DNA of 42,003 nucleotides from a virus. Lineage: Duplodnaviria; Caudoviricetes. The stretch lies in IMG/VR virus record IMGVR_UViG_3300032250_000163, positions 1-42,003 of that record; one strand, 5' to 3'. Below the pieces are notes generated by a model that did not search any database, was not told the DNA's origin, and saw only the letters and a list, made by a program, of their open reading frames with translations. Position 1 is the stretch's first letter, and each line of letters starts with the position of its first letter. The position numbers and the translations under genes are program-made. Positions 490-40,677 of this stretch are shown here, in pieces.

Positions 490-2561
490 GTTCTAGCCGT
501 AACGTTAACTGTGATTGCTGTTACATCATATGGATCAATTGTAATGATTCGATTGTATGTAGATGAAACAATAGAAGTGGTTGGTGTTGTGGTTACTGTG
601 AATTGTCCCAAATCATTATCAACTTGAATAGGACTAAATGAATCTAATGTAATAACACCTTCTTGGTAATCAATCGTACCAATATTAGAATTGAAAATGG
701 TCTTTACATTATTACTGTCAAAATAATAAGTTCTTAATGTACCATAACGACCCTCCAGATTCACGATGGCTGCACCAAGTTGACCAGTTGTGTCGCCATC
801 GACTGGTGTTATCATAGCCACAGCACTAGTATAACCACTACCCACACTATCAACCACGATGCGTTGAATTGTTCCGCCAGATATGACGGCTGTTGCGGTT
901 GCACCGACACCATCACCCATTATAGTGACTGTTGGTGGTGATTGATAACCAAAACCCGGATTTAGAACAGATAAACTCTCAACACCATTGGTTGATGAAG
1001 GAACTTCTTCAATGTAAATTTCATCAATGATGTTTGCAAGATTGGTTGGATCTCTGAACTGTAATGCTGGTGAACTACTTGTACCAGACAAATATCTTCC
1101 TGCTTGCAATGAAGAATTATAATACAGTTTATAGGTTGTTGGTGTAGTTAAGTTAGGTAAAAACTTCTTCTGCAATTTTAAATCAAACTCACTGGTAATC
1201 ACAGCAGAACTATAGTTTTGTACTGTGTTCAACAAATCGTATGTGTTGAATGTTGAATTGAATGTGTTTAATGTATTGTTACCAAAAGTTTGAACGGCTG
1301 ATTTGATACCAGCAGCCAATTGTGTGGCTGTCTGTGTTGTCTTGGTTGGATCATAGATTACATTTAAATTTAATTGTAAGTATGTGTAATCAGGATCAAC
1401 AATTGTAGGAGTAACAGTCAATACAGAGATAGGTTTTAAAATATCTTCTATGATTCTTTGTTTCTGTGTCTGAGTAAGACTAAATGCACCAGTTGGTTTC
1501 AAAGAAACAAATACTTGACCATAAACGGGTGGAACATTTTCTTCACCACCCCATACATTGACCGCATCAAACTGAATACCTAAATCGTTTTGTTGAATGG
1601 CTGTAATATAATCGTTCTTATTAACTGCACGATTCTGTGCTGAGTATGACTTTGGTGCTTGAAACTTAATCGACTCAATGGTTTCTCTTTCATTACCTGA
1701 TGTGGCAGAAGTTACAGGAAACACCGTGGTGTTTGCGTAACCAACAATCGTGTCCATCAATACAAAGTTATTTGCTTGTGCAGCTGCCGTACCTGATGTA
1801 ACAACATAAGAAACATTTACAATATTACCATCAGTTAATTTTTTACCAATGACATTATCACCAAAGTAAATCTCATAAGTGTTGTTTAAACTCTCTTGTA
1901 AGAAATATACCTTTGAATCACTTGTCAATGAAAGATAATTGGTGGCCAGAGAATATACATCTGAAGCTGCATTAGAAGAAGATTGTTGAACAGTTACCAC
2001 AATAGTAGAAGTGTCCACATTCTCATCAGGAATTTCAAATGTGTAAGAAGGATTATTAATCGAATCAACCGTGAAATCTAATGTCGTTGCCAAACCTTGT
2101 TTCAAAGTAACATTAGTAAAATTGACCACACCACCAACAGTATTCTCTGTATAGGCATCAGAAGTGACAAAGTTATAGTTTACTCCATCAATTGCTTCTG
2201 ACATGAAAGAGGTGAATTTTGGTAATGTTAATGAAGATTGTACCACGCCATTCACTTGCAAATTGATTGTTGCTGTTGGTGCTATCGATGACCGTGGTGT
2301 ATAGTTTAACATCTTTGCCTGAGATACAACCGAACCTCTTTGAATGGCTGTATCTAAGAACATTTCATTGCCTATTTGATTTAAATAATACGCATTATAT
2401 TGTGTATTATAGGCAAGAATGTCTAAAAGTGTAGAAAGAGCAGAACCTTCATAGTTGTAATCTTTGAGTGTATCTTGAGATTGTAAATATGTTTTAAGAT
2501 TGTTCTTAATTGTATTAAAATCCAAATCAGTCATTTGGATATTTGAGTTAGCTCCTGCCAA
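486..2561 (-). CDS. gp6: Baseplate wedge subunit gp6
   Basis: The N-terminus DLDFNTIKNNLKTYL...DYNYEGSALSTLLDILAYNTQYNAYY and the motif APKSYSAQNRAV..DY are typical of T4-like gp6. TTG start with AGGAG upstream. Confidence 0.93.
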   Translation of the reverse strand: MAGANSNIQMTDLDFNTIKNNLKTYLQSQDTLKDYNYEGSALSTLLDILAYNTQYNAYYLNQIGNEMFLDTAIQRGSVVSQAKMLNYTPRSSIAPTATINLQVNGVVQSSLTLPKFTSFMSEAIDGVNYNFVTSDAYTENTVGGVVNFTNVTLKQGLATTLDFTVDSINNPSYTFEIPDENVDTSTIVVTVQQSSSNAASDVYSLATNYLSLTSDSKVYFLQESLNNTYEIYFGDNVIGKKLTDGNIVNVSYVVTSGTAAAQANNFVLMDTIVGYANTTVFPVTSATSGNERETIESIKFQAPKSYSAQNRAVNKNDYITAIQQNDLGIQFDAVNVWGGEENVPPVYGQVFVSLKPTGAFSLTQTQKQRIIEDILKPISVLTVTPTIVDPDYTYLQLNLNVIYDPTKTTQTATQLAAGIKSAVQTFGNNTLNTFNSTFNTYDLLNTVQNYSSAVITSEFDLKLQKKFLPNLTTPTTYKLYYNSSLQAGRYLSGTSSSPALQFRDPTNLANIIDEIYIEEVPSSTNGVESLSVLNPGFGYQSPPTVTIMGDGVGATATAVISGGTIQRIVVDSVGSGYTSAVAMITPVDGDTTGQLGAAIVNLEGRYGTLRTYYFDSNNVKTIFNSNIGTIDYQEGVITLDSFSPIQVDNDLGQFTVTTTPTTSIVSSTYNRIITIDPYDVTAITVNVTART

Positions 2562-3198
2562 AATTATTCTCCTCTAGGACTTTACATACCCATCCTTTAT
2601 GTGTTTTATTTTTTCCTTGTGCAACAGCTGACATGTTGCCTTGATTTAAACCATGAAACTTGCAAAATTCAGATAAATTGTGAGTATGGTGTGTATTATT
2701 ATTTGGATCCGTAATAAACCAATTTTTCATATTTTTTAATGAATGTTTTGGTATTTTTCCTTTTAATGTTTCTGATAACTTCTTTGTTTGTTCTGGAGTC
2801 ATTTTTTTATTTTTGTTCCAAGGAATATTTCCTTTTTTTACACCACCTATACCAGGTCTTTTTATTCCTTTGTTTGGTGGAATTTTACCCATCATTGCAA
2901 TACTCTTTTTCTTTCTTTGTTCTTCGGTATGTTTATAACCAGAAACGCCATCACCACCCTCAGTTTTATTTAATAATATACCCGTATCTAAATCTTTTCT
3001 ACCATACCAACGAATATATCTTTTTTCTAACGCTAGAGCGCCGATTTCTGTTAAATTCTTTTCCATTATTACAATTTTATTATGATCTTTTGGTACTGAA
3101 ACTCCTTGGTGTTTCATCCATGCTCGTTGGCCTTTACCTTTACCAATATAGTATGGTGAACCATCACTTTTTCGTATGTATGCATAGACATAATACAT
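2548..3198 (-). mobile_element. Free-standing GIY-YIG homing endonuclease with NUMOD3-like basic repeats
   Basis: YVYAYIRK..PYYIGKG..R motif, NKTEGGDG, HTEEQRKKKS and PWNK repeats. It sits between gp25 and gp6 and overlaps both. Confidence 0.8.
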
Positions 3199-4229: not shown

Positions 4230-6491
4230 TCAATTTTTAGTTGCAATAATAACATCAACATAATTTACTGCTAAATTAATTGCCGTGCCACTAAATCCGT
4301 GAGTGTGTGAACCTCCGCCGCCGGTGTTATTTGTGGCATTACTCAAACCAAAAGCACTATTATCAAAATCGTTACCTTGATTCGAACCAGCCAAACCACT
4401 TGAATAACTTCCACCAACTTCAGCAAAATAATAGTCTGTGAATGAGTGACTGTGGCCAGGTATTTGAGATTCTGAGAGTGTTGTTGCACCTACGGATCCT
4501 GAAACTGATTGTGAAGCAAATGCTGCCGAGAAGGCTACAGAACCGCCAGTACCTACTGTACCACTCACAAGTCTTAACGCTTTATCGTTGTGTGTTGTTA
4601 CTTTGGTCCAACCGGTTGGTGCAGCCGTTTGTTGGAATAACAATGCGGTACCTGCTGGAAAACTGGCATTAGATGCATTAGTGGTGGCAGTATTTGCTTG
4701 ATTGTAAGCACTTTGTACATACGGTACAATGTCAATACCATTCAAAATGGCGTTATTCGCTCTCATAATCCCATTTACTTCTAAAGCACTTTGTGGATTA
4801 GTTGTATTAATACCTACGCTACCATTTAAAAAGGCGCTATTCGCTTTAATATTCCCATTTACTTCCAAAGCAACGGTTGGATTAGTTGTCTTAATACCAA
4901 CATTACCAGCAGAAGTAATACGCATCCGTTCTGGAGTTATGTCTTGAGCATCGTTTACAGCACTTCCAACACCAAAAGCCAAATACTGAGTACCCCAGTT
5001 TCCACCGTTGAATCCAGACCAAACGTCTGCTGCTCGTCTTGGTCCGTTATCGCCAGTACCAACAAATGTAGGGTAAAAAGAAACGCCAGCTAATTGGCCT
5101 TGAGCACTGCCAATAGCATGAGTCGATAATCCTGCACCAGCAGAATTAGCAAGGTTTTGCGTTCCTGTAATTCTTCCAACTACTTGCAGTTGACTATTTG
5201 GAGATGCTGTACCAATACCAACTAAGCCAGCAGCAGTAATACGCATCCGTTCTGCTTCACTAGATGTACCAGTAAAAAATCTTAAATCACCAGTATTGTT
5301 AATAGCAACTGTAGCAGTAGAAACTTGTGTTCCGCTACTTAATACATTTAAAAATATACCAGCACCGGGAGCAGCATTAGCTGTATTTGTAATTTGAACT
5401 CTTGTAGCTGCGCTTGCATCTCTTACATCTAGTCTAAAAGCAGGACTACTTATACCAATACCTACATTGCCACCTTGTGTAATTCTTACTAACTCTGTGG
5501 CACCAGAACCAAAAGCCATTCCATAAGCACCGTTTGGAGGATTAAATTCGATGTAACCTTGGTCTGTTACATCAATTCTTTGTTGTATTTTTGTTGAAGC
5601 CGTAGTCCAATTAGAACCGTCAGCCCAACGATATCCATATGTTCTAAGATATGATCCGTTACCATTACTATAAGTTGCCGAATACATATCATATGTGGAA
5701 TTTCCTGCATAAATTCCTAAAGTGTTGCCAGTAACAGTCAAAGTTCCTGTTATTGATCCACCAGAAGTTGTAATTGCAGTGTTTGCTTTATTAAATCCTG
5801 CTTGAGCCAAAGCTGTAGCGGAGTTAGCGGTAGTTCTTGCAAAAGAATCTATTGATGTTCCAGAACCAGAAATAGTATTTGCATAATTAAAAGCTGATTG
5901 AGCTAAAACTGTACCTGTGTTAGCTTGATTATAAGCTGATTGTGTAAATTGATTTACTGTCGTAATAGCGGTATTTTGGTTAATGTTAATTGTTTCGATT
6001 GAATTTAATCTGGTGTTTTGTGTATTATCTACACCTTGAATAATGAAGATACTGGTATTCTGATTGGTATTAATTGTTTCAATAGAAGAAATTCTGGTGT
6101 TTTGAGTTGCATTATTGGTGCTAATCCATGTATTTTGAGTGAGATTCACACCTTGAATTAGAATTGTGTTTGCTTGTGCTGACAAAGCAATTTGTCTTGC
6201 CACATTATCAACCGCAGCACCACCTTGAATTGTATTCGCATAGTCGTATACAATTTGTGCTAAAGTCGTTGCAGTATTGGCTTGATTATAACTTGAGGTA
6301 GCAATGCCTGTGGCCACATTGGCCTGTTGATATGCAGGATCATTTACAGGTGGTAAAGGAGGATATGATGATGTAATTGTAACGGTGCCGTTGGCTACCG
6401 CAACACCACCAGATACAGATGTAATTGATGGTATTCCGTATGTTAATACCTTTTGTATTGAAGATGATGGTACGGCTATTGTATAACTCAT
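4230..6491 (-). CDS. Tail fibre protein
   Basis: Coiled-coil A/N/T-rich repeats (QSAYNQANT), repeated ERMRIT..GNVGIG..P beta-repeats, and a C-terminal collar/tip-like region (FPAGTALLFQQTAAPTGW...SQIPGHSH...SHTH). Confidence 0.88.
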   Translation of the reverse strand: MSYTIAVPSSSIQKVLTYGIPSITSVSGGVAVANGTVTITSSYPPLPPVNDPAYQQANVATGIATSSYNQANTATTLAQIVYDYANTIQGGAAVDNVARQIALSAQANTILIQGVNLTQNTWISTNNATQNTRISSIETINTNQNTSIFIIQGVDNTQNTRLNSIETININQNTAITTVNQFTQSAYNQANTGTVLAQSAFNYANTISGSGTSIDSFARTTANSATALAQAGFNKANTAITTSGGSITGTLTVTGNTLGIYAGNSTYDMYSATYSNGNGSYLRTYGYRWADGSNWTTASTKIQQRIDVTDQGYIEFNPPNGAYGMAFGSGATELVRITQGGNVGIGISSPAFRLDVRDASAATRVQITNTANAAPGAGIFLNVLSSGTQVSTATVAINNTGDLRFFTGTSSEAERMRITAAGLVGIGTASPNSQLQVVGRITGTQNLANSAGAGLSTHAIGSAQGQLAGVSFYPTFVGTGDNGPRRAADVWSGFNGGNWGTQYLAFGVGSAVNDAQDITPERMRITSAGNVGIKTTNPTVALEVNGNIKANSAFLNGSVGINTTNPQSALEVNGIMRANNAILNGIDIVPYVQSAYNQANTATTNASNASFPAGTALLFQQTAAPTGWTKVTTHNDKALRLVSGTVGTGGSVAFSAAFASQSVSGSVGATTLSESQIPGHSHSFTDYYFAEVGGSYSSGLAGSNQGNDFDNSAFGLSNATNNTGGGGSHTHGFSGTAINLAVNYVDVIIATKN

Positions 6492-18398: not shown

Positions 18399-18907
18399 AC
18401 GTACATCTTCAAAATACCTAAGGTTGTTACCCAATCGGTGTGAAGAATACCAATACCACCAGCTTTACGCCAGTCATCAATAACACTTGGTGTATCATCA
18501 ATAATAATCTTATCTGGCCCAGCAAACTTCCATTTGTGTCGTTTACCTGGAACAAAGTTTGGTGTGAATGTGATGCCGTGAGTTTGCAACCAAATCATCT
18601 TTTGTTTTGAAATCTCATCGTACCGTTCTTCATTGGCAGTAGATGTTAAAATCTGTGTTGGTACAGTTAGGTGTTTACGCAAGAATGTCAAACCATCCAT
18701 GGCACCAGGCATTAGGTCTAGAGTTTCAAATTGTTTTGTTGCAATGAATTCATCAAAGAACTTATTGAATTCCTTTTTCTTTTCTGCATCTCTCGGTTCC
18801 ATGTGGTACTGTTCTTTGTATCGTTTAACGAAATCAGCCACCACACCATCTAAATCTAGGTATATCATACTTATTTTTGGTTTTTGCATAACATTCCTTG
18901 TTTCCAT
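18395..18907 (-). CDS. HAD-superfamily 5'(3')-deoxyribonucleotidase-like phosphatase (true start probably near 18889)
   Basis: IYLDLDGVVADF (motif I), ILTS, K..WL and IIIDDTP. Confidence 0.85.
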   Translation of the reverse strand: METRNVMQKPKISMIYLDLDGVVADFVKRYKEQYHMEPRDAEKKKEFNKFFDEFIATKQFETLDLMPGAMDGLTFLRKHLTVPTQILTSTANEERYDEISKQKMIWLQTHGITFTPNFVPGKRHKWKFAGPDKIIIDDTPSVIDDWRKAGGIGILHTDWVTTLGILKMYV

Positions 18908-19425
18908 CCTACTGGAGGATTCTTTGTTAATAATTGTTCGATACCATTATTGTACCATTTATTTCCTTTTGTTGTTGGCTTTTGATATAATCTTCCTAAA
19001 GTCCAACCTTTTCCTGGGTTTTCAATAGATAAAGTGTTTTCTTTTCCATTATTATACCATCTACTTTTTTTATTAGCTTCACTTCTTCTTAATGATTGTT
19101 CTATTTTATTTTTATCCGATTGCAATTTTCCAGGAGAACCTTCACCCCCAATCGTTTGATTGTAACCATTCTTAAAAGAATTATATTCTTCTATAAAAAT
19201 ACATTCGATATATTTTAAATGATTATAATCTGAAGTTTGATAAATTATTTGCCAATCAAAATTATCCCAACCATACTTTCGGATTGCTTTATGTAACAAA
19301 AATCCATCACTTAATTTGGATTTTGATTTGTGTGCGTACCTTCGAGTAGGCCAATTTTTATCAATACCAATATACACTTTATTGTTTATTTTATTTGTTG
19401 CTTTATAGACAGAATAAATATTCAT
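18871..19425 (-). mobile_element. Free-standing GIY-YIG (Seg-like) homing endonuclease
   Basis: IYSVYKATNKINNKVYIG...R...H, AIRKYG, GYNQTIGGEG and two WYNNG...GW..G repeats. Confidence 0.85.
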
Positions 19426-19491
19426 GCTGATATTCCTTTACAATATTAGAGTAGGTGGGAACGCCAATTCCGTGACCTACACCTATTTATA
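19426..19491 (-). ncRNA. Structured cis-regulatory leader (late promoter plus two hairpins), copy A
   Basis: 66 nt, 57/66 identical to 40612-40677 with compensatory substitutions; starts with TATAAATA and ends at the endonuclease ATG. Confidence 0.75.
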
Positions 19492-21755: not shown

Positions 21756-22412
21756 TCACCACTTTTGATCATTATAGAACTTAATTGCCTTAACTAGGCC
21801 TTCGATATGGTCTTCCGTTTTCTCTTGGAATACCAATGGTTGTTCATCTTCTACCGCCATGATAATTACCAGGTTGTGTATAGGTGTACCAATCATTTCT
21901 TCGTACATCAAACTATATGCGGCCGTTTGCCAAAAGTAATCTTCAATCTGTGCTTTGGTTTTAATCTTCTTGGATGTTTTGAAATCGATTACTGATAGTT
22001 GACCATCGAATTCACCAATCACATCTACACGACCTGCCATACCCAATTGTTTCGACCACAATGCACACTCTTGATAATGAATGTTGTTGATACGATTTAA
22101 TAGTGGTTTGAGTGATATAAACATCTCCAAGGCGTCTGGCATGACCAGACCTAGACCTTCATTGTTCAGATATCGTTCACACAAGGTATGCACATTGGTG
22201 CCTCTTCCTGTAGCCTTCTTTGAGATTGCATTGGCTACATCTTCACCTACTCTCTTTCGCCATGCCATAATGGCATCTTTCTTTTGGGCGCCAAGAACAG
22301 TCGTTACCGATGGTAGTTTGGTGCCATCAGGTAGAGTATAGAATCGACCACTGGATAATGTTTCTGATTGTAAATCTTCAAGTGGTATTGGTGGGCAGAA
22401 TGTAAATGTCAT
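21756..22412 (-). CDS. PD-(D/E)XK exonuclease
   Basis: LPSVTTVL, RGTNVH..CE, E..LWS....AGRVD, VIDFKTS and Q..AY..M.EE. Confidence 0.88.
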   Translation of the reverse strand: MTFTFCPPIPLEDLQSETLSSGRFYTLPDGTKLPSVTTVLGAQKKDAIMAWRKRVGEDVANAISKKATGRGTNVHTLCERYLNNEGLGLVMPDALEMFISLKPLLNRINNIHYQECALWSKQLGMAGRVDVIGEFDGQLSVIDFKTSKKIKTKAQIEDYFWQTAAYSLMYEEMIGTPIHNLVIIMAVEDEQPLVFQEKTEDHIEGLVKAIKFYNDQKW

Positions 22413-23188
22413 TTTTTAGTCACAAATTTTTGTTTTATTATTTTGAAAAATTCTATATCACTTGGTGTAAGATCAACCGCATCAATATTTTTTCTATACT
22501 CTTTAGCCTGATTTTGTAATTGTGCAAAATCACCCATATACTTGAAATGTTTTGTAATTCTATTTGTATCGTAAGCATCCATGATAATATGATGCCTATC
22601 TTTATCGGAATCGTTACGAATTTGATGCCAGACATTCACCCATAAAATATAAACTGAACCATCAGCTGGCATATGTAAGTTTTGTCCATCACACATATGT
22701 ACACACTTTTCATTTGTTATGAGTGGTATGTGTATGCGAGCCATATAGTTATTCGATACAGAATCTCTATGCACTAATGATTTTGAGTGTGCTTGCAAAC
22801 AAGAAACTCTAGCTCGCCTAGGATAAAAGCCTAATCGTTCCAAATCGTTCAAAACTTCTGCAATATATCCTACGCAAGCTGGAGTTGGTTTATCATGTTC
22901 CAATCCAGAATCGTGTGATACATTTAAAAATTTCATTGCTTTATAATTATATTGGCCGTTAGGAAAGAACAGGTCATTTGTTTCTTTATCATCGGAATGA
23001 TATACTTCCCATCCATCATGCCAATCACCAGTTCTGGTCAATAAACTCCAACCACCAAAACCTTGATATTGTTCAGTTTCATATTCTTCACCTTGAATAA
23101 CTTGTGGACCTAAAGAAAATACATTATCTTCCACTTCTTTTCGTAGTCGGTTAATATCAACTTTATAATCTAATTTTTCATACCACAT
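22409..23188 (-). CDS. Aspartyl/asparaginyl beta-hydroxylase-like Fe(II)/2OG oxygenase
   Basis: RARVS.L......HRD.....RIHIPLITN...HMPADGSVY...WH...N.SDKDRHHIIMD: an HxD...H triad with an AspH-family layout. Confidence 0.75.
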   Translation of the reverse strand: MWYEKLDYKVDINRLRKEVEDNVFSLGPQVIQGEEYETEQYQGFGGWSLLTRTGDWHDGWEVYHSDDKETNDLFFPNGQYNYKAMKFLNVSHDSGLEHDKPTPACVGYIAEVLNDLERLGFYPRRARVSCLQAHSKSLVHRDSVSNNYMARIHIPLITNEKCVHMCDGQNLHMPADGSVYILWVNVWHQIRNDSDKDRHHIIMDAYDTNRITKHFKYMGDFAQLQNQAKEYRKNIDAVDLTPSDIEFFKIIKQKFVTKK

Positions 23189-23715
23189 TATAGGTGGCCT
23201 CCATCTTTTAATATGTCATATACAACATTATACTCTAAAGATGAACCAATGGCAACAGCCATTCTATCACTAAATTCACCTTGTGGTGTGACTGAGTGTG
23301 GTAAACTCACATTTAATAACCATGCTTCGTTAGGTTTGGCTATAAATGAATGGGTCTTTTTCAAATCCGGTTCACCAAATATAAAACCATCAGTTTGATT
23401 ATCCACCTGTTCGAATTTAGGTGTATCATTTTTGAATTTATAAAATTGAGTTAAACAATTATCCGTTTTTAGATATATGTTTATGGTTGATTTGATACCA
23501 CTATCTGTGTGTGGTGGTATAGTTGTATTGATGTGCATTAGAGTGACAAAAAAATAATCTTTATATTTTTCTGGTATAATATCAAACATATTGAATTTGC
23601 CAAAATTAACATAATGATAGGCAATACCTTTGTCACCTTTCATGAATGACATTTGAACATCTAGAATGTTGTAATCATCAATCACAAACTCATTATTTAA
23701 TTTGCAGAATTCCAT
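23188..23715 (-). CDS. Fe(II)/2OG-type (DSBH) oxygenase-like protein
   Basis: IPPHTDSG..STINIY...AWLLNVSLPHSV......R: an HxD...H...R pattern. Confidence 0.65.
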   Translation of the reverse strand: MEFCKLNNEFVIDDYNILDVQMSFMKGDKGIAYHYVNFGKFNMFDIIPEKYKDYFFVTLMHINTTIPPHTDSGIKSTINIYLKTDNCLTQFYKFKNDTPKFEQVDNQTDGFIFGEPDLKKTHSFIAKPNEAWLLNVSLPHSVTPQGEFSDRMAVAIGSSLEYNVVYDILKDGGHL

Positions 23716-24395
23716 TCTCTCACTTTCATCATATCATTACACCAACTTTTTAGTACCAATGCATTTTTAGCTGATTCGTCAACAATTTGAAAATAATCAG
23801 CTGATATTGATATTCTTAAATCTTTTGATGTATTAACTTCAACTTCGTGCAACATATAAAAAGGTAAAATAACAATTAAACCGGTTTCTATTTTAATTCT
23901 CTCGACACAACCATCTTGTACATGACAAAGAAGATCACCAGAATTTTTTGGTGTTTGTACATAATAAGTTACCGCAAAAGAGGTATCAGGATGAGCATGA
24001 TTATCAATATTTAATCCAGGTGACCTAACATTTGGCCAACCCATAATTGATTCAAATTTTAATTTTAAATCTTTTAGTTCTGGTATAGTATATGCCGATG
24101 TTGTTACATAATAATCAAAAGTTTTTTTGAGTATTTGTAAGTTAGGCCTAGGGTAATCCCATAAACTATTTTTAGGATTAGGAGAAGTAGAAATCTCTTT
24201 AGCGATAGAGTATAATTCGTCTAATAAATTTTCATTAAAATCATTATCAAAATCTGTTTTTACTGTCCAAATAGGATAATTCCATAAAGGATTACTGTTT
24301 GGATTTTTTCCACTCTTTGTATTCTTTAACGATATCACATTCATATTCCCAATTAATTCCATCATGTGGTTCTTGTTTAGCAAAGTATTGTTCAT
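23697..24395 (-). CDS. Fe(II)/2OG oxygenase (TIGR02466-like); true start may be slightly downstream
   Basis: HAHP.T..AVTYYV..P.NSGDL...LIVILP..MLHEVEVN.S...RISIS. Confidence 0.75.
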   Translation of the reverse strand: MNNTLLNKNHMMELIGNMNVISLKNTKSGKNPNSNPLWNYPIWTVKTDFDNDFNENLLDELYSIAKEISTSPNPKNSLWDYPRPNLQILKKTFDYYVTTSAYTIPELKDLKLKFESIMGWPNVRSPGLNIDNHAHPDTSFAVTYYVQTPKNSGDLLCHVQDGCVERIKIETGLIVILPFYMLHEVEVNTSKDLRISISADYFQIVDESAKNALVLKSWCNDMMKVREWNSAN

Positions 24396-24660
24396 CTCCG
24401 TAAATTATGTATTCAAAAAGATTATTACCTTTGTGGAACAATTTCATGAAAATGTCAGCATATTCATCAGCCATTTGAAAAAATCTAGATTTATCTTCCG
24501 GTGATAGATTCAAAATATCATTCTTTAATTGACTGTCAAAATAATGTATGACGTGTTTCCTATACAATGCAAGTTCTTCTTCTGATATAACACCATCTCG
24601 ATTTAGGTCAGCATCAGCAAACCCATCGTTGTTTAAATCAAGTTGCTCTGGATTGTTCAT
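24292..24660 (-). CDS. Small EF-hand-like acidic protein
   Basis: DLNRDGVISEEE is a canonical 12-residue EF-hand loop, preceded by a degenerate DLNNDG; the ATG overlaps the stop of the Cys-rich gene. Confidence 0.55.
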   Translation of the reverse strand: MNNPEQLDLNNDGFADADLNRDGVISEEELALYRKHVIHYFDSQLKNDILNLSPEDKSRFFQMADEYADIFMKLFHKGNNLFEYIIYGDEQYFAKQEPHDGINWEYECDIVKEYKEWKKSKQ

Positions 24661-25559
24661 TTTGATATTCCTTGAAATACATTAAATATTTTTAATGATT
24701 TTATTTTTTTATTTAAACGAGAAAGTTTTACAACACCCTCAGATGCGTAGTGACTCATGAAGAACATCGACCACATTAACCAAGTTGTTATTGTTCCTGG
24801 GTTTGCTCTCTTAGGTAACATATTAACAAACTTACAAATAGGTCTACCTATGGTCATAATCACACGACCTTTAAGGTTATCGTTTGGTAAAGCGCCCATC
24901 AAGAAGGCCATATGTTCTGCCCATGGTGTACCAATCTTTTGAGCCCATTCCGTAGAGGTTCTCTTTTGTTCTGAAGATCGCAATTCTTTATCTTTAATCC
25001 AAATCAGGTAATCTGGACCGTTTCCGTCCATCCATGAGGTAACAATCTTCGCCCATTTAATATAACCTTTGTATACTGAACGGTCATGTTTTTTCAGCCA
25101 CTCTCCATACTGTTGATCTGCTGACCACACACGATAATCCATCATTCCAAATTCGTATAATTTAGCACAGATAATCTTTGAACAGTTACAGGCACAATTG
25201 CAGTTATATGAGGTTTCTGCTGTTGAACAATTATAGGAGCAAGCACAGTTACAGTTTGCCTGCAGAAAGCTGCTTCCGTCACAGTTTGCACAATTTACAC
25301 CACCAGAAATAACACAGTTGTTACATTGTATGTTACCACAGTTACAGTTTGATGTACAGTTTCCGTTGTTACAGTTACCTTGTGTGGTGTTCTGAAAATA
25401 CGCTTTACTATAGAAATTACTCATGGCTGGGGTTTCAGGCCTTTGGGCTGGCACTATAACATTATTCAAGAATTGTAAACTGGACGAATAGGTTGTAGGT
25501 AGCCCTATCTCAACATTGATGTCTGCATTACTAATTGGTCCTGATGCTGGTAGTGTCAT
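24657..25559 (-). CDS. Asn/Cys-rich protein (candidate substrate of the neighbouring modification enzymes)
   Basis: 16 Cys in residues 63-126, 13 of them as Asn-Cys; N-terminal MTLPASGPISNADINVEIG; distinct C-terminal domain starting KIICAKL. Confidence 0.8.
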   Translation of the reverse strand: MTLPASGPISNADINVEIGLPTTYSSSLQFLNNVIVPAQRPETPAMSNFYSKAYFQNTTQGNCNNGNCTSNCNCGNIQCNNCVISGGVNCANCDGSSFLQANCNCACSYNCSTAETSYNCNCACNCSKIICAKLYEFGMMDYRVWSADQQYGEWLKKHDRSVYKGYIKWAKIVTSWMDGNGPDYLIWIKDKELRSSEQKRTSTEWAQKIGTPWAEHMAFLMGALPNDNLKGRVIMTIGRPICKFVNMLPKRANPGTITTWLMWSMFFMSHYASEGVVKLSRLNKKIKSLKIFNVFQGISK

Positions 25560-25586
25560 GATTATACTCTTTAATTGTTATGTTAC

Positions 25587-25594
25587 TATTTATA
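25587..25594 (-). promoter_or_regulatory. T4-type late promoter TATAAATA driving the Cys-rich gene and the downstream oxygenases
   Basis: Exact TATAAATA immediately after the desaturase TAA, 27 nt upstream of the ATG at 25559. Confidence 0.75.
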
Positions 25595-26299
25595 TTAGGT
25601 GTTAAACTTAACTAGTCCAAAAAAACTGAATATTCTAAGGTATAGGTAACCAATATCAAATTCATACCATTTTCTTTTAAGGTTAGTATTCATAGGTTGT
25701 GTGTGGTGATTATGGTGCATTTCTTCACCAGCAGCAATCAAACCAATAGGAAATAGATTCCTACTATTATCCGACCGTTTACCACGATATCCAATTAAGT
25801 GGCCACCAATGGCAATAATAACAGTCATACAGACAGTCACCCATGAGATTTGAATCAACCAGACAACGATTCCAACCCATCCAAACAGATACAGGTTCAA
25901 CGCTAATATAATGTATGTTCCAAGTCTTAGGTGACGGTCAATCCAACCATGTGGCACATGGCTTACTTTACTCATTTGGTTATCATTGGCAAACCCACGA
26001 TAACCATTAACAATACAACCAAAACAAATTTTAATAGTAGATTTAATCCTTTGTATTGGTGTACCGTCATAAAATACAAAATGTGGATCGTTTGGTGTAT
26101 CCGCATATGTATGGTGTTCACGATGTATTGCAGTCCATTCTTTTACACCAGTACCATCAAATAACCATAACCAATATCTCATAAAATTAGCCAATACAGG
26201 ATGCATAGTATACTGTTGATGTGCCATTCCTCTATGCACATACAAACTAAAACAAACAATCGTAATGTGCATGGTAATCAATGTGTACCATACTATCAT
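25595..26299 (-). CDS. Membrane fatty-acid desaturase (delta-9-like family), copy 2
   Basis: His boxes HRGMAH, HREHH (followed by DPH) and GEEMHHNHH; WYEFDIG; TM segments. Confidence 0.9.
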   Translation of the reverse strand: MIVWYTLITMHITIVCFSLYVHRGMAHQQYTMHPVLANFMRYWLWLFDGTGVKEWTAIHREHHTYADTPNDPHFVFYDGTPIQRIKSTIKICFGCIVNGYRGFANDNQMSKVSHVPHGWIDRHLRLGTYIILALNLYLFGWVGIVVWLIQISWVTVCMTVIIAIGGHLIGYRGKRSDNSRNLFPIGLIAAGEEMHHNHHTQPMNTNLKRKWYEFDIGYLYLRIFSFFGLVKFNT

Positions 26300-27024
26300 T
26301 TTAGTTTCAATAGTCCTAGTTTTTGAAATATTCTAAGATACAGGTAACCTATATCAAATTCAAACCAGCGGTGTGCAAAATTAGGATTGGATGGATCTCT
26401 GTGATGGTTATTGTGTAGTTCATCTCCGGATATCATTATGCCAATAGGAAACAAATTTTTACTATTATCTTTAGAATCAGGATGTCTATAACCGAACCAG
26501 TGAGCAAAACCTGAAATGCAGGCAGTAGACCAAAACGGCACAAAAAATATATGAAATATCCATACTGCTAGGCCTATCCAAAAACCAAACAACAATATAT
26601 CAACAAATAAAAATAATATCAATCCGAGTCTTGGAAATTTAGCATAAACATTTTTTTCCAACCAGTCTGATGGAGTTCCTCTTCCATAGTGTTCTAGTGC
26701 CCAATCAGTATCAAAATACTGATACAATCGAATAAAATTAGGCACCATGCATTGCAAAGTGACCGACCAATTACCGTATAGTTTTGGAGAATGTGGATCA
26801 CCATGAACATCAGTATATTTGTGGTGTTTACGGTGTTGAGCTACCCAAGGTTTTGAAATTACTCCATCCGAGAACCAAAGCCAAAATCTCATGATGTGTT
26901 CTAATGCACGATTTAAAGTGAATTGACTGTGAGTTAAGTATCTATGTAAATATAATGATACACACACAATCGTAATGTGAGTTGTTATGAATGAGTATAA
27001 AGCTATCTCACCAAAGGTCATCAT
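26296..27024 (-). CDS. Membrane fatty-acid desaturase (delta-9-like family), copy 1
   Basis: His boxes HRYLTH, HRKHH (followed by DPHSP) and GDELHNNHH; WFEFDIG; TM segments. Confidence 0.92.
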   Translation of the reverse strand: MMTFGEIALYSFITTHITIVCVSLYLHRYLTHSQFTLNRALEHIMRFWLWFSDGVISKPWVAQHRKHHKYTDVHGDPHSPKLYGNWSVTLQCMVPNFIRLYQYFDTDWALEHYGRGTPSDWLEKNVYAKFPRLGLILFLFVDILLFGFWIGLAVWIFHIFFVPFWSTACISGFAHWFGYRHPDSKDNSKNLFPIGIMISGDELHNNHHRDPSNPNFAHRWFEFDIGYLYLRIFQKLGLLKLK

Positions 27025-28460
27025 TCTACCCTTGATTTACCATATACTTGAACACCTTCAATTTCACCGATCACTTCACTCACAACTTTAATAGGAATAA
27101 TTTTCTTCGATGGCTTTTCTTTGTGTTCAAAGATTGAACCAAAAATGTCTTGGCGTTCGAGAGGCAACTCATCATTTTTAATTAGTGTTGGAATATAACC
27201 TGTGATTGCCTGAATTGCTAAAGCAAACAAAGCAACATTGTCGGAATATGAATTTGCACAAGAAATTTCCCAAAACTTTTCATCCAAGAACATACATGCA
27301 CCTTTACAGATATGTAAAACTGGACATCCAGAGCATTCTTTGCGTTTAGACCAATGTGTAGATGATGTAATTTTTACGTTACCATAATCATCTAGTGTAC
27401 CACCCAAATGTGGTTCGTGATTCTTTGAAATTTCTAATGAAGAAACATTTTGACAAGTCATTACGTTACCACGAAGATCAACAGCAAGCGTGTGTTCATC
27501 GTCCATACCACACTTTTGTCCTAGATATTTTGCTGGATAGTGTGATAGTATCTTAGCAACCAAATCATCAATCTTATTTAATTGACCAGTGAAACCGATC
27601 CGACCTTGTGTGGAAAAAATATCAGCAAAAGCAATTTTACGATACTCAAAATGTTCTTGTAATGTTTGTAATGAATTGGTCACGCCATCTTCATCATATG
27701 CATCAACGATACCACCTTCACCCAGTTGAACATTGGGATCACCAGTTAGTTCGACAAACCACTCGTAAATGGCTTTGCGACTTTTGTTTTTAGAGTTCAT
27801 CATTGGATTAAAACTAAAACCTTTTTTCAATCTAGTCATCATACGATAGAATCCTAAGATTCTTTCTTTGGCTTCAGGATCATCAAAAGGATCTGGTCCA
27901 CGGACAGATTGGCCAGGACCATCATGAGAGATTGATACAGTAAAATTCATCATCATCAACCAATCAATAATCTGATCCGTTAAGATAGAACCATTGGTGA
28001 TGATTGAGAAGTGTGGTTGTCGTTTCCATCCAGAGAATCTATCTCTGATGGCTTCTGCCAATGGCTTGAGTGTTTTCCAATAAACTAATGGTTCACCACC
28101 CCAAAACTCAATGTGCAATCCTTTTTCTTCTTCAAACCGCAATACATCCAATTTCTCTAAGAAGGCATCAATATCTTTCTTAGAGGTTTCTGGTGCTCGT
28201 TCAACAAACTTCTGTGAACAGTAATCACAGGAATAGTTACAAGATAATCCTAATTGAATTTTCAGATGTGTAATGAGTTCAGATTTGATTAGTGGGTTTT
28301 CTTTATCAAAGGACTTATATTCTTTCTGATCGGAATAATCTGGTCGTTGAGGCCATTCATAAATGTTGCCGTCAGCATCCTTTAAGATATTGGCCATATT
28401 ATCATAATAAAAGACCTTCTTATCATTGATATTTTTTTCACCGTGTATTTCAAAAATCAT
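27021..28460 (-). CDS. Radical SAM enzyme with a C-terminal SPASM domain
   Basis: CNYSCDYC (CxxxCxxC), FWGGEPL, ITNG and SISHDGP; SPASM cysteines KCG..., MTC, CSGCPVLHICKGAC and a final C. Confidence 0.92.
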   Translation of the reverse strand: MIFEIHGEKNINDKKVFYYDNMANILKDADGNIYEWPQRPDYSDQKEYKSFDKENPLIKSELITHLKIQLGLSCNYSCDYCSQKFVERAPETSKKDIDAFLEKLDVLRFEEEKGLHIEFWGGEPLVYWKTLKPLAEAIRDRFSGWKRQPHFSIITNGSILTDQIIDWLMMMNFTVSISHDGPGQSVRGPDPFDDPEAKERILGFYRMMTRLKKGFSFNPMMNSKNKSRKAIYEWFVELTGDPNVQLGEGGIVDAYDEDGVTNSLQTLQEHFEYRKIAFADIFSTQGRIGFTGQLNKIDDLVAKILSHYPAKYLGQKCGMDDEHTLAVDLRGNVMTCQNVSSLEISKNHEPHLGGTLDDYGNVKITSSTHWSKRKECSGCPVLHICKGACMFLDEKFWEISCANSYSDNVALFALAIQAITGYIPTLIKNDELPLERQDIFGSIFEHKEKPSKKIIPIKVVSEVIGEIEGVQVYGKSRVE

Positions 28461-39990: not shown

Positions 39991-40042
39991 ATTATACAGG
40001 TTCTGGTTTGGTTGGCAACCAGTTTGTTGTACCTAAACAACA
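39991..40042 (-). promoter_or_regulatory. Early sigma70-type promoter with an upstream TGTTG-N8-CAACA box
   Basis: TTGCCA (40018-40013), 16 nt, TATAAT (39996-39991); palindrome at 40025-40042. Confidence 0.7.
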
Positions 40043-40611
40043 AGTTTACCACTTTTTTTCTGCCACTTTATACCTTTGTTCCACGGTATTCTTTTACTGG
40101 AAGCCTCACCAATTTTTTTCTTGGTTTCTTCCGAATGTTTTTTACCAGTAGCGGACAAACTCATTTTCTTTTTTGTTTCTTCGCTACGTTTTTGTCCTAT
40201 TTTGGATTGGGACATTTTTCGTTTGGATTCTTCACTAAATTTATAACCCAATAAATTTTTGTTACCTTTAACACCTTCTGATATTTTCTTTTTATCTTCT
40301 TCAGTAAAAACATATCCTCTTAAACCTTCACCACCAATTGTAGAATTATATCCTTCATTATAACTGTTATACTCTTGAATAAAATGTGGTTCCATTATTT
40401 TCAACGTATGGTCAGCATCACATGATTGGTATATTAATTGCCATTCAAAATTATTCCATCCGTGTTTACGAATTGCTCTGTAAAATTTATTATCTTCCGT
40501 TTTATAACAACATTTATGACCATTCTTTCTTTTTGGCCAATGGGTTGCAAAACCAATATAACATTTACCGTTTATTTTATTTGTTGCTTTGTAGATAGAA
40601 TATATACTCAT
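40033..40611 (-). mobile_element. Free-standing GIY-YIG (Seg-like) homing endonuclease with NUMOD3 repeats
   Basis: IYSIYKATNKINGKCYIG, AIRKHG, GYNSTIGGEG and four (H/F)SEETKKK(M/I)S-type repeats. Confidence 0.87.
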
Positions 40612-40677
40612 GCTGGCATTCCTTTACAATGTTAGGGTGGGTGGGAGCTCCAACTCCGTGACCCACACCTATTTATA
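40612..40677 (-). ncRNA. Structured cis-regulatory leader (late promoter plus two hairpins), copy B
   Basis: Colinear, gap-free homolog of 19426-19491 with compensatory base changes. Confidence 0.75.

What the first reader, a model, noticed from the sequence alone, without database searches (positions are those of the whole stretch)
22409..28460. Phage-encoded RiPP-like modification cluster around a late Asn-Cys-rich protein
Seen: eight co-oriented, tightly packed genes between phoH and the exonuclease. In transcription order they encode a radical SAM/SPASM enzyme, two desaturases, a 300-aa protein with 16 Cys in 64 residues (13 as Asn-Cys), an EF-hand protein, and three Fe(II)/2OG-type oxygenases, the last resembling Asp/Asn beta-hydroxylases. 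Established: radical SAM/SPASM enzymes next to Cys-rich peptides form Cys-to-carbon thioether crosslinks (sactipeptides, ranthipeptides), and AspH-type enzymes hydroxylate Asn/Asp in Cys-rich EGF-like domains. Inference: this is a dedicated post-translational tailoring system whose substrate is the Asn-Cys core, possibly producing a crosslinked, hydroxylated virion adhesin or a released peptide. I know of no characterised phage system with this set of genes.
Basis: partly seen in the sequence, partly recalled or inferred. Interest (0 to 1): 0.9.

Follow-up and report, generated by a model that had tools for sequence, protein, structure and literature searches.

The report
Enzyme cassette tailoring phage fibre tip
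This T4-like phage carries a conserved gene cassette that pairs an iron-sulfur radical enzyme and three oxygenases with an asparagine-cysteine-rich protein that likely sits at a tail-fibre tip and is likely cross-linked by the enzyme, a kind of virus-particle chemistry that is untested and that I did not find in the papers I searched.

Summary
Observation confirmed: eight genes; 16 Cys in 64 residues, 13 as Asn-Cys (0 of 200,000 shuffles). The core is a pair: a seven-cysteine SPASM radical SAM enzyme (closest fold CteB) and the Asn-Cys ladder, found together in all 76 non-redundant ladder groups and in 56 of 60 enzyme-first loci (the other four are truncated). In the isolated phages JWF and RSP15 the ladder ends a tail fibre; in T4-like relatives it has a late-promoter motif. 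The substrate is therefore probably a virion fibre-tip protein, not a released peptide. Its C-terminal 'KIIC' domain is an unnamed portable cap of virion proteins (1,556 clusters) in the slot of Hint or S74 domains. The AspH-type oxygenase and the small helical gene accompany KIIC-type ladders (48 of 48) across three phage backbones, but these form one enzyme clade. Corrections: 'EF-hand' is not conserved (12 of 99); desaturases are optional (12 of 48). Chemistry is untested; thioether cross-linking is my best guess. The scan found this system before on other DNA (e.g. e1-5364996, e1-5375245); no paper found.

The parts
27021..28460 (-). Radical SAM/SPASM enzyme (479 aa, phrog_1802); CxxxCxxC plus seven SPASM cysteines; N-terminal three-strand element
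26296..27024 (-). Membrane desaturase 1 (242 aa), three His boxes; optional member of the cassette
   Evidence: PF00487 47.4 bits; His boxes; 12 of 48 complete KIIC-type cassettes carry a desaturase
25595..26299 (-). Membrane desaturase 2 (234 aa), three His boxes; optional
   Evidence: PF00487 42.5 bits
25587..25594 (-). T4-type late-promoter motif TATAAATA (consensus recalled) in front of the ladder gene
   Evidence: ATAAATA within 60 nt of the ladder start in 36 of 47 T4-like loci, 0 of 37 for each downstream gene, 0 of 9 podovirus-like loci
24657..25559 (-). Three-part Asn-Cys ladder protein (300 aa), the inferred substrate
25386..25559 (-). N-terminal domain (about residues 1-58), like the start of small proteins encoded directly behind S74-ended tail fibres; inferred fibre-docking domain
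   Evidence: tblastn 8 of 10 records at such genes, E 0.003-0.8; hhalign 93-97% over 24-28 columns
25182..25376 (-). Asn-Cys ladder (residues 62-126)
   Evidence: 16 Cys, 13 Asn-Cys; 852 of 1,115 Cys in 70 homologous ladders follow Asn; model pLDDT mostly under 50
24657..25181 (-). 'KIIC' C-terminal helical domain (residues 127-300), unnamed portable cap of virion proteins
   Evidence: 1,556 clusters at 50% identity; contexts; no Pfam, NCBIfam, PHROG or PDB match
24292..24660 (-). Small helical partner protein (122 aa); the EF-hand-like loop is lineage-specific
   Evidence: 48 of 48 KIIC-type, 0 of 12 other cassettes; loop in 12 of 99
23697..24395 (-). 2OG-Fe(II) oxygenase (PF13759, phrog_81); true start may lie somewhat downstream of the listed ATG
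   Evidence: 40 of 48 KIIC-type, 5 of 12 other cassettes
23188..23715 (-). Unnamed 2OG-Fe(II)-type oxygenase (175 aa)
   Evidence: invariant H69, D71, H140, R151; 46 of 48 vs 1 of 12; no family or PDB hit
22409..23188 (-). AspH-fold beta-hydroxylase-like oxygenase (259 aa)
   Evidence: PF05118 39.4 bits; invariant H140, D142, H188, R198; nearest solved chain 7V4F, E 2e-5; 48 of 48 vs 0 of 12

Best explanation
A phage radical SAM/SPASM enzyme is encoded with a late-promoter-linked Asn-Cys ladder protein that likely docks on a tail-fibre tip, and the enzyme likely staples the ladder with Cys-to-carbon thioether bonds. Steps: (1, shown) enzyme and ladder travel together in T4-like, podovirus-like and siphovirus-like contigs and in isolated phages, where the ladder is the end of a tail fibre. 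(2, inferred, about 0.75) in this phage the ladder protein is a separate tip protein attached through its N-terminal domain, in the manner of gp38-type adhesins. (3, inferred, 0.9 that the enzyme acts on the ladder, 0.65 that the product is a thioether) the three-cysteine auxiliary cluster would bind a ladder thiol while the adenosyl radical takes a hydrogen from a nearby residue, most likely Asn; the acceptor position is unresolved. (4, inferred, about 0.55) the AspH-type and the two other oxygenases, co-transcribed behind the ladder gene, would hydroxylate ladder residues such as Asn, with the small helical protein as chaperone or adaptor. (5, inferred, about 0.5) the KIIC domain would be a maturation cap that is removed, as Hint and S74 domains in the same slot are. 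(6) The desaturases are optional and their link to the ladder is weak (about 0.3).
Confidence: 0.55

Rival explanations
1. The enzyme acts on the ladder of a fibre-tip protein but makes something other than thioethers (C-C cross-links, epimers, or Asn/Cys side-chain conversions); the cysteines are left for disulfides or metal.
Against: Seven-Cys SPASM with a free ligand site and a substrate whose only invariant feature is many Cys; PapB is the best NCBIfam hit; CrpC precedent (PMC13692751).
Confidence: 0.2
2. Only enzyme and ladder are a system; the oxygenases and desaturases are auxiliary metabolic genes that were captured once next to it and act on host lipids or small molecules. (Compatible with the core of the best explanation.)
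For: One enzyme clade carries them; desaturases are gained or lost 9 times and their named relatives are delta-9 desaturases; phrog_81 oxygenases are common phage genes; the nearest solved AspH-like chain belongs to a caprazamycin beta-hydroxylase study; desaturase link not significant (12 of 48 vs 0 of 12, p 0.10).
Against: AspH-type gene 48 of 48 and the 175-aa oxygenase 46 of 48 are kept through moves between three backbones, with 60% mean identity for AspH; in L122 KIIC, partner, AspH and the 175-aa gene are all missing together.
Confidence: 0.3
3. The ladder is a metal- or Fe-S-binding needle, like the His-x-His iron sites of other fibre tips (recalled), and the enzyme serves to load or build the centre.
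For: Dense CxC and CxxC spacing; in JWF, RSP15 and L060 the ladder ends a fibre.
Against: Strict Asn-before-Cys preference (76%, 99% Asn/Ala/Gln/Asp) suits enzyme recognition; the fold is that of peptide maturases.
Confidence: 0.1
4. The ladder is cut out and released as a RiPP-like peptide (toxin, signal or chelator) and is not part of the virion.
For: Some ladder proteins are only 126-138 aa; tailoring enzymes of natural-product type (halogenase, B12 radical SAM, PP-loop) occur in related cassettes.
Against: Ladders are fused to annotated fibres in isolated phages; late motif; N-terminal domain shared with proteins behind tail fibres; no protease or exporter among the 61 neighbour families listed, as far as annotated.
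Confidence: 0.08

Closest known systems
CrpC/CrpA of Methanococcus voltae (PMC13692751; read: abstract, sections 12 and 14, term searches in text and 3 supplement files)
   Same: Seven-Cys SPASM radical SAM enzyme beside a Cys-rich protein of about 29 kDa; thioether cross-links on a protein, not a short peptide.
   Different: Archaeal, no phage mentioned in text or held supplements; its model TIGR04463 scores 41.7 vs cut-off 525 (that CrpC belongs to TIGR04463 is from scan note e1-6048839); different Cys motifs; no fibre context, no oxygenases.
CteB (SCIFF/ranthipeptide maturase, PDB 5WGG), PapB, NxxcB
   Different: 17% identity; all cut-offs missed; substrates there are short leader-core peptides; RRE helices not seen in the model.
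gp38-type tail-fibre adhesins of T2/T6/S16 (passages of 10.64898/2026.05.12.724579, PMC12143355, PMC9608196)
   Same: A separately encoded small protein that caps a fibre whose S74/IMC end has cleaved; small N-terminal helical docking domain plus variable distal domain; L044 has a Gly-rich insert, P0193 joins a similar N-terminus, a gp38-like body and KIIC.
   Different: No sequence match to gp38 itself; distal part is an Asn-Cys ladder needing an enzyme; extra C-terminal KIIC domain.
Peptidase_S74 intramolecular chaperones and Hint domains
   Same: Occupy the same C-terminal slot directly behind the ladder in related loci.
   Different: KIIC is all-helical with no detectable relation to either; self-cleavage not shown; sometimes follows a Hint domain in tandem.
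Asp/Asn beta-hydroxylase family PF05118; PDB 7V4F (listed in the caprazamycin Cpz10 paper PMC9814697, search listing and start of abstract only)
   Same: Facial triad and Arg conserved; Pfam cut-off met.
   Different: The family includes small-molecule hydroxylases; an EGF-like Asn substrate is not implied by membership.

Membership tests
Radical SAM/SPASM enzyme | CxxxCxxC motif and partial TIM barrel | tested here: met
   C74/C78/C81 in 48 of 48; PF04055 40.7 vs 29.5; fold search
Radical SAM/SPASM enzyme | SPASM domain with seven Cys | tested here: met
   TIGR04085 32 vs 27 bits; C317, 336, 376, 379, 385, 389, 401 invariant
Named thioether maturase families (PapB, SCIFF/CteB, CcpM, TIGR04463) | Curated HMM cut-off | tested here: not met
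   78.9/340, 51.2/425, 62.6/500, 41.7/525 bits
Ranthipeptide/sactipeptide maturase | Forms Cys-to-carbon thioether on its substrate | not testable with these tools
   needs MS and alkylation
Ranthipeptide/sactipeptide maturase | N-terminal RRE (three strands, three helices; recalled) | tested here: inconclusive
   three strands at 2-28, no helix before residue 94; alignment to CteB starts at model residue 20
RiPP cluster | Cys-rich substrate gene co-occurring with the enzyme | tested here: met
   76 of 76 groups; 56 of 60 enzyme-first loci
RiPP cluster | Short leader-core precursor released by a protease and exported | tested here: inconclusive
   substrate is 126-364 aa or the end of a fibre; no protease or exporter among annotated neighbours, many neighbours unannotated
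gp38 adhesin | Sequence or profile match to gp38 domains | tested here: not met
   no gp38 hit for 52 N-termini in Pfam or PDB; three gp38-like proteins lack this N-terminus
gp38 adhesin | Encoded by or near an S74/IMC-ended fibre | tested here: inconclusive
   met in many podovirus-like and some T4-like relatives and for the N-terminal look-alikes; not in this window, which is 24% of the genome
gp38 adhesin | Binds the trimeric fibre tip | not tested
EF-hand protein | Conserved paired EF-hand loops | tested here: not met
   under cut-off; loop in 12 of 99 homologues
Fe(II)/2OG oxygenase (three ORFs) | HxD...H triad and Arg | tested here: met
   for the 175-aa and 259-aa ORFs; PF13759 over cut-off for the 232-aa ORF
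Protein Asp/Asn beta-hydroxylase | Hydroxylates Asn/Asp in a protein | not testable with these tools
   Pfam met, substrate unknown
Membrane fatty acid desaturase | Three His boxes, PF00487 | tested here: met
DesA family (NF049918) | Curated cut-off and full length | tested here: not met
   198.8 and 271.2 vs 400 bits; cover 239 of 385 positions
CFI-box-CTERM (NF041770; accession recalled) | HMM match of the KIIC domain | tested here: not met
   0 matches in the window, 0 of 40 KIIC proteins
Self-cleaving C-terminal domain (Hint, S74) | Autoproteolysis at the junction | not testable with these tools
   only position and an invariant Cys (C131) point to it

The most novel reading that the evidence does not exclude
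Phages build their host-recognition tip like a natural product: a poly-thioether-stapled, beta-hydroxylated Asn-Cys adhesin, diversified by swappable tailoring enzymes (oxygenases and desaturases here; halogenase, B12 radical SAM, PP-loop enzyme in relatives), with KIIC as a third, undescribed self-processing domain of virion proteins that may even attach a small molecule or lipid to the new end. This would give many orphan phage oxygenases a protein substrate.
Probability: 0.3. Interest if true: 0.92.

Novelty: new variant of a known kind. Interest (0 to 1): 0.76.

Why it matters
Receptor-binding tips set phage host range and are assumed to be plain polypeptide. A widespread enzyme (2,723 clusters at 90% identity with E up to 1e-30 among 8,000 scored; not all shown to be this family) that rewrites the tip chemically would be a new layer of host recognition, a source of multi-site cross-linking enzymes for protein substrates, and a testable role for phage 2OG oxygenases of unknown substrate. 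Cultured phages carrying the core pair exist, so the test is within reach. The KIIC domain is a large unnamed family in its own right.

Tried and rejected
Literature: searches (0 papers; 1, on DNA modification; 0; 20 listed of 455, none on this; 0; 0; 4; PMC12801897 read by term search: its radical SAM gene is a different, antibiotic-type cluster; 7 listed, not read). The library lacks most subscription papers, and the CrpC Supplemental Data set 1, which lists similar clusters 'across all domains of life', may not be among the 3 files searched. EF-hand reading rejected. gp38 membership not met. CFI-box link not found. My early note that RSP15 gp046 is AspH-like was not confirmed (probability 0.06). 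KIIC fold: Foldseek PDB had no match at E 0.001; BFVD gave only uncharacterised phage proteins; the wide structural search was never run, so a known fold is not excluded. Atlas: three unnamed viral clusters under 0.9 for KIIC, nothing for the N-terminus. Word-index search for longer KIIC proteins found none although HMMER found many. Genome-contig scan with the single enzyme gave 1 locus, so prophages were hardly sampled. Sigma-70 promoter scan at chance level (42 vs 41.9). Sequencing runs: no RNA holder listed. Fibre-tip docking prediction: tool not available, no result. Pairwise-identity correlations (ladder vs KIIC 0.63, vs AspH 0.52, vs desaturase 0.02) are not independent of kinship and are not used as evidence. 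The careful tree did not finish; the quick IQ-TREE tree is quoted.
Full report
Observation. The eight ORFs are present on the minus strand from 28460 to 22409, between phoH and a PD-(D/E)XK exonuclease. The window is a fragment (24% complete) of a T4-like phage (baseplate gp6, gp25, gp53, gp32). GC does not set the region apart (0.31-0.38). The 300-aa ORF has 16 Cys in residues 63-126, 13 of them after Asn; 0 of 200,000 shuffles of the core reach 13. Family assignments hold for the radical SAM/SPASM enzyme, both desaturases and two oxygenases; the 175-aa ORF has only the invariant HxD..H..R pattern. The EF-hand label fails: under cut-off, and the loop is in 12 of 99 homologues.

The core is a pair. 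A scan with the enzyme gave 60 viral loci: 55 have an Asn-Cys-x-Cys ORF within 4 kb by motif, L004 has one by BLAST, and the other four contigs end in or next to the enzyme. A scan with the ladder protein gave 80 loci (best 80 of 82), 79 with the enzyme; the miss ends 156 bases behind the gene. After collapsing 199 ladder ORFs at 90% identity, 76 of 76 groups have the enzyme within 4-5 kb. The motif is in 1 of 685 other ORFs, and that one is a fibre gene near an enzyme homologue (L060). In 70 ladders, 852 of 1,115 Cys follow Asn and 1,102 follow Asn, Ala, Gln or Asp.

The substrate looks like a fibre tip. Five GenBank records of three isolated phages hold the enzyme over 80% of its length at 44-46% identity. 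In Achromobacter phage JWF the fibre gp028 ends in a ladder followed by a Hint domain, two genes before the enzyme; in Ralstonia phage RSP15 the 'side tail fiber' gp048 ends in a short ladder three genes before it. The first 52 residues of the window's protein hit, weakly (E 0.003-0.8), 10 phage records; 8 are the starts of small genes directly behind tail fibres, 2 are thymidylate synthase; in the three fetched, the fibre ends in an S74-type domain, the arrangement described for gp38-type adhesins (passages of 10.64898/2026.05.12.724579 and PMC12143355). Profile comparisons support the N-terminal likeness, but those proteins were found with this query, there is no match to gp38 itself, and three gp38-like proteins lack this N-terminus. 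In podovirus-like contigs the cassette follows a fibre gene. In T4-like relatives ATAAATA stands within 60 nt of the ladder start in 36 of 47 loci, before none of the downstream genes (0 of 37 each) and in no podovirus-like (0 of 9) or siphovirus-like (0 of 3) locus; the enzyme gene has it in 15 of 46. So the ladder, partner and oxygenases are probably one late transcript.

The KIIC domain. Behind the ladder, relatives have KIIC (60 of 76 groups), S74 (3), Hint (1) or nothing (12). KIIC is helical in the model (pLDDT mostly 77-86), starts with invariant K-I-x-C, and is found in 1,556 clusters, at the C-terminus of proteins of up to 1,859 aa among the 150 listed, mostly behind a Gly-rich linker. 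Carriers include DUF4815 and Gly_rich_2 proteins (52 scanned), a cyanophage fibre-region protein and P0193, whose middle matches a protein annotated as gp38 adhesin. It has no family or PDB match. Removal by self-cleavage is inferred from the slot alone.

The accessory genes. Among groups with at least 4 kb downstream (48 KIIC-type, 12 others; 16 groups dropped for short flanks): helical partner 48 vs 0, AspH-type 48 vs 0, 175-aa oxygenase 46 vs 1, PF13759 oxygenase 40 vs 5, desaturase 12 vs 0 (the HMMs were built from these loci). Eleven loci with KIIC on proteins of over 1,300 residues (near-copies, 1.6-4 kb downstream) and the cyanophage locus have none of these genes, so they go with KIIC plus ladder. 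The count overstates independence: KIIC-type enzymes plus L122 form one branch (SH-aLRT 99, quick tree). What remains is retention across T4-like, podovirus-like and siphovirus-like backbones (3 changes; backbones assigned by marker BLAST) and joint absence in L122. Desaturases have intact His boxes, named relatives are delta-9 desaturases, and they need 9 changes among 58 KIIC rows; they do lie inside the cassette, at two different positions, in unrelated backbones. Other cassettes carry a halogenase, a PP-loop protein or a B12 radical SAM enzyme instead.

Mechanism. Most likely the late-made ladder protein is stapled by the enzyme through Cys-to-carbon thioethers, probably hydroxylated on Asn by the oxygenases, freed of KIIC and docked on a fibre tip, where a rigid modified surface would serve in host binding. 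Linkage, architecture and motifs are shown; all chemistry, cleavage and docking are inferred (overall 0.55).

Novelty. Enzymatic thioether cross-linking of a Cys-rich protein is known (CrpC/CrpA), so this is a new variant of a known kind; a phage virion version was not found in searches, nor in the CrpC text or its three held supplement files; subscription papers and unseen supplements may bear on this. The scan noted the same system on other DNA, which is not independent support; one such note is marked as partly fallen, without details. My reading before seeing the notes was already a fibre-tip cross-linking system; the notes gave me the CrpC paper. Added here: the split into a core pair and a KIIC-linked oxygenase module with controls and a tree, the late-motif test, the census of KIIC, and the downgrading of the EF-hand and desaturase parts.

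Noticed in passing
window 24657-25181; proteins P0121-P0270: KIIC domain: 1,556 clusters; of 135 parsed among the best 150, 91 follow a Gly-rich linker, 10 a Cys ladder, 34 other; carriers include DUF4815 and Gly_rich_2 virion-type proteins; no family name.
   Followed up: partly
P0158, P0177, P0191, P0197, P0236: Hint domain and KIIC domain in tandem, KIIC at or shortly behind the Hint His-Asn end (5 of 52 proteins scanned).
   Followed up: no
L042, L047, L051, L126, L144; L044, L048, L123, L132, L135; L014-L039: Related cassettes carry other enzymes: tryptophan-halogenase family, a PP-loop protein with a cupin, or a B12-binding radical SAM enzyme, and a different partner gene behind the enzyme.
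   Followed up: partly
L122:4321-8271: Natural swap: enzyme nested among KIIC-type siphovirus-like loci but with an S74-ended ladder, the other partner gene, and no AspH-type gene, 175-aa oxygenase or desaturase.
   Followed up: partly
L044:311-1405: Ladder protein with a long polyglycine insert between the N-terminal domain and the ladder (no Pfam hit).
   Followed up: no
L142:4114-10069 (Ralstonia phage RP12): Three radical SAM genes in a row behind virion structural genes, with no Asn-Cys ladder in the eight genes translated; a more distant system (28% identity).
   Followed up: no
window 19484-19491 and 40670-40677: Two of the four exact TATAAATA motifs lie just before the two GIY-YIG-type homing endonuclease genes (18871-19425, 40033-40611); a third NUMOD-type gene sits between gp25 and gp6 (2548-3198).
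   Followed up: no
window 4230-6491: 753-aa ORF with weak tail-fibre PHROG hits and no S74 end; a possible but untested docking partner.
   Followed up: no
L069, L079, L080, L097, L103, L107, L136, L150, L162: Fibre genes before the cassette stop just after the same short tip motif that elsewhere precedes the S74 cleavage site.
   Followed up: partly
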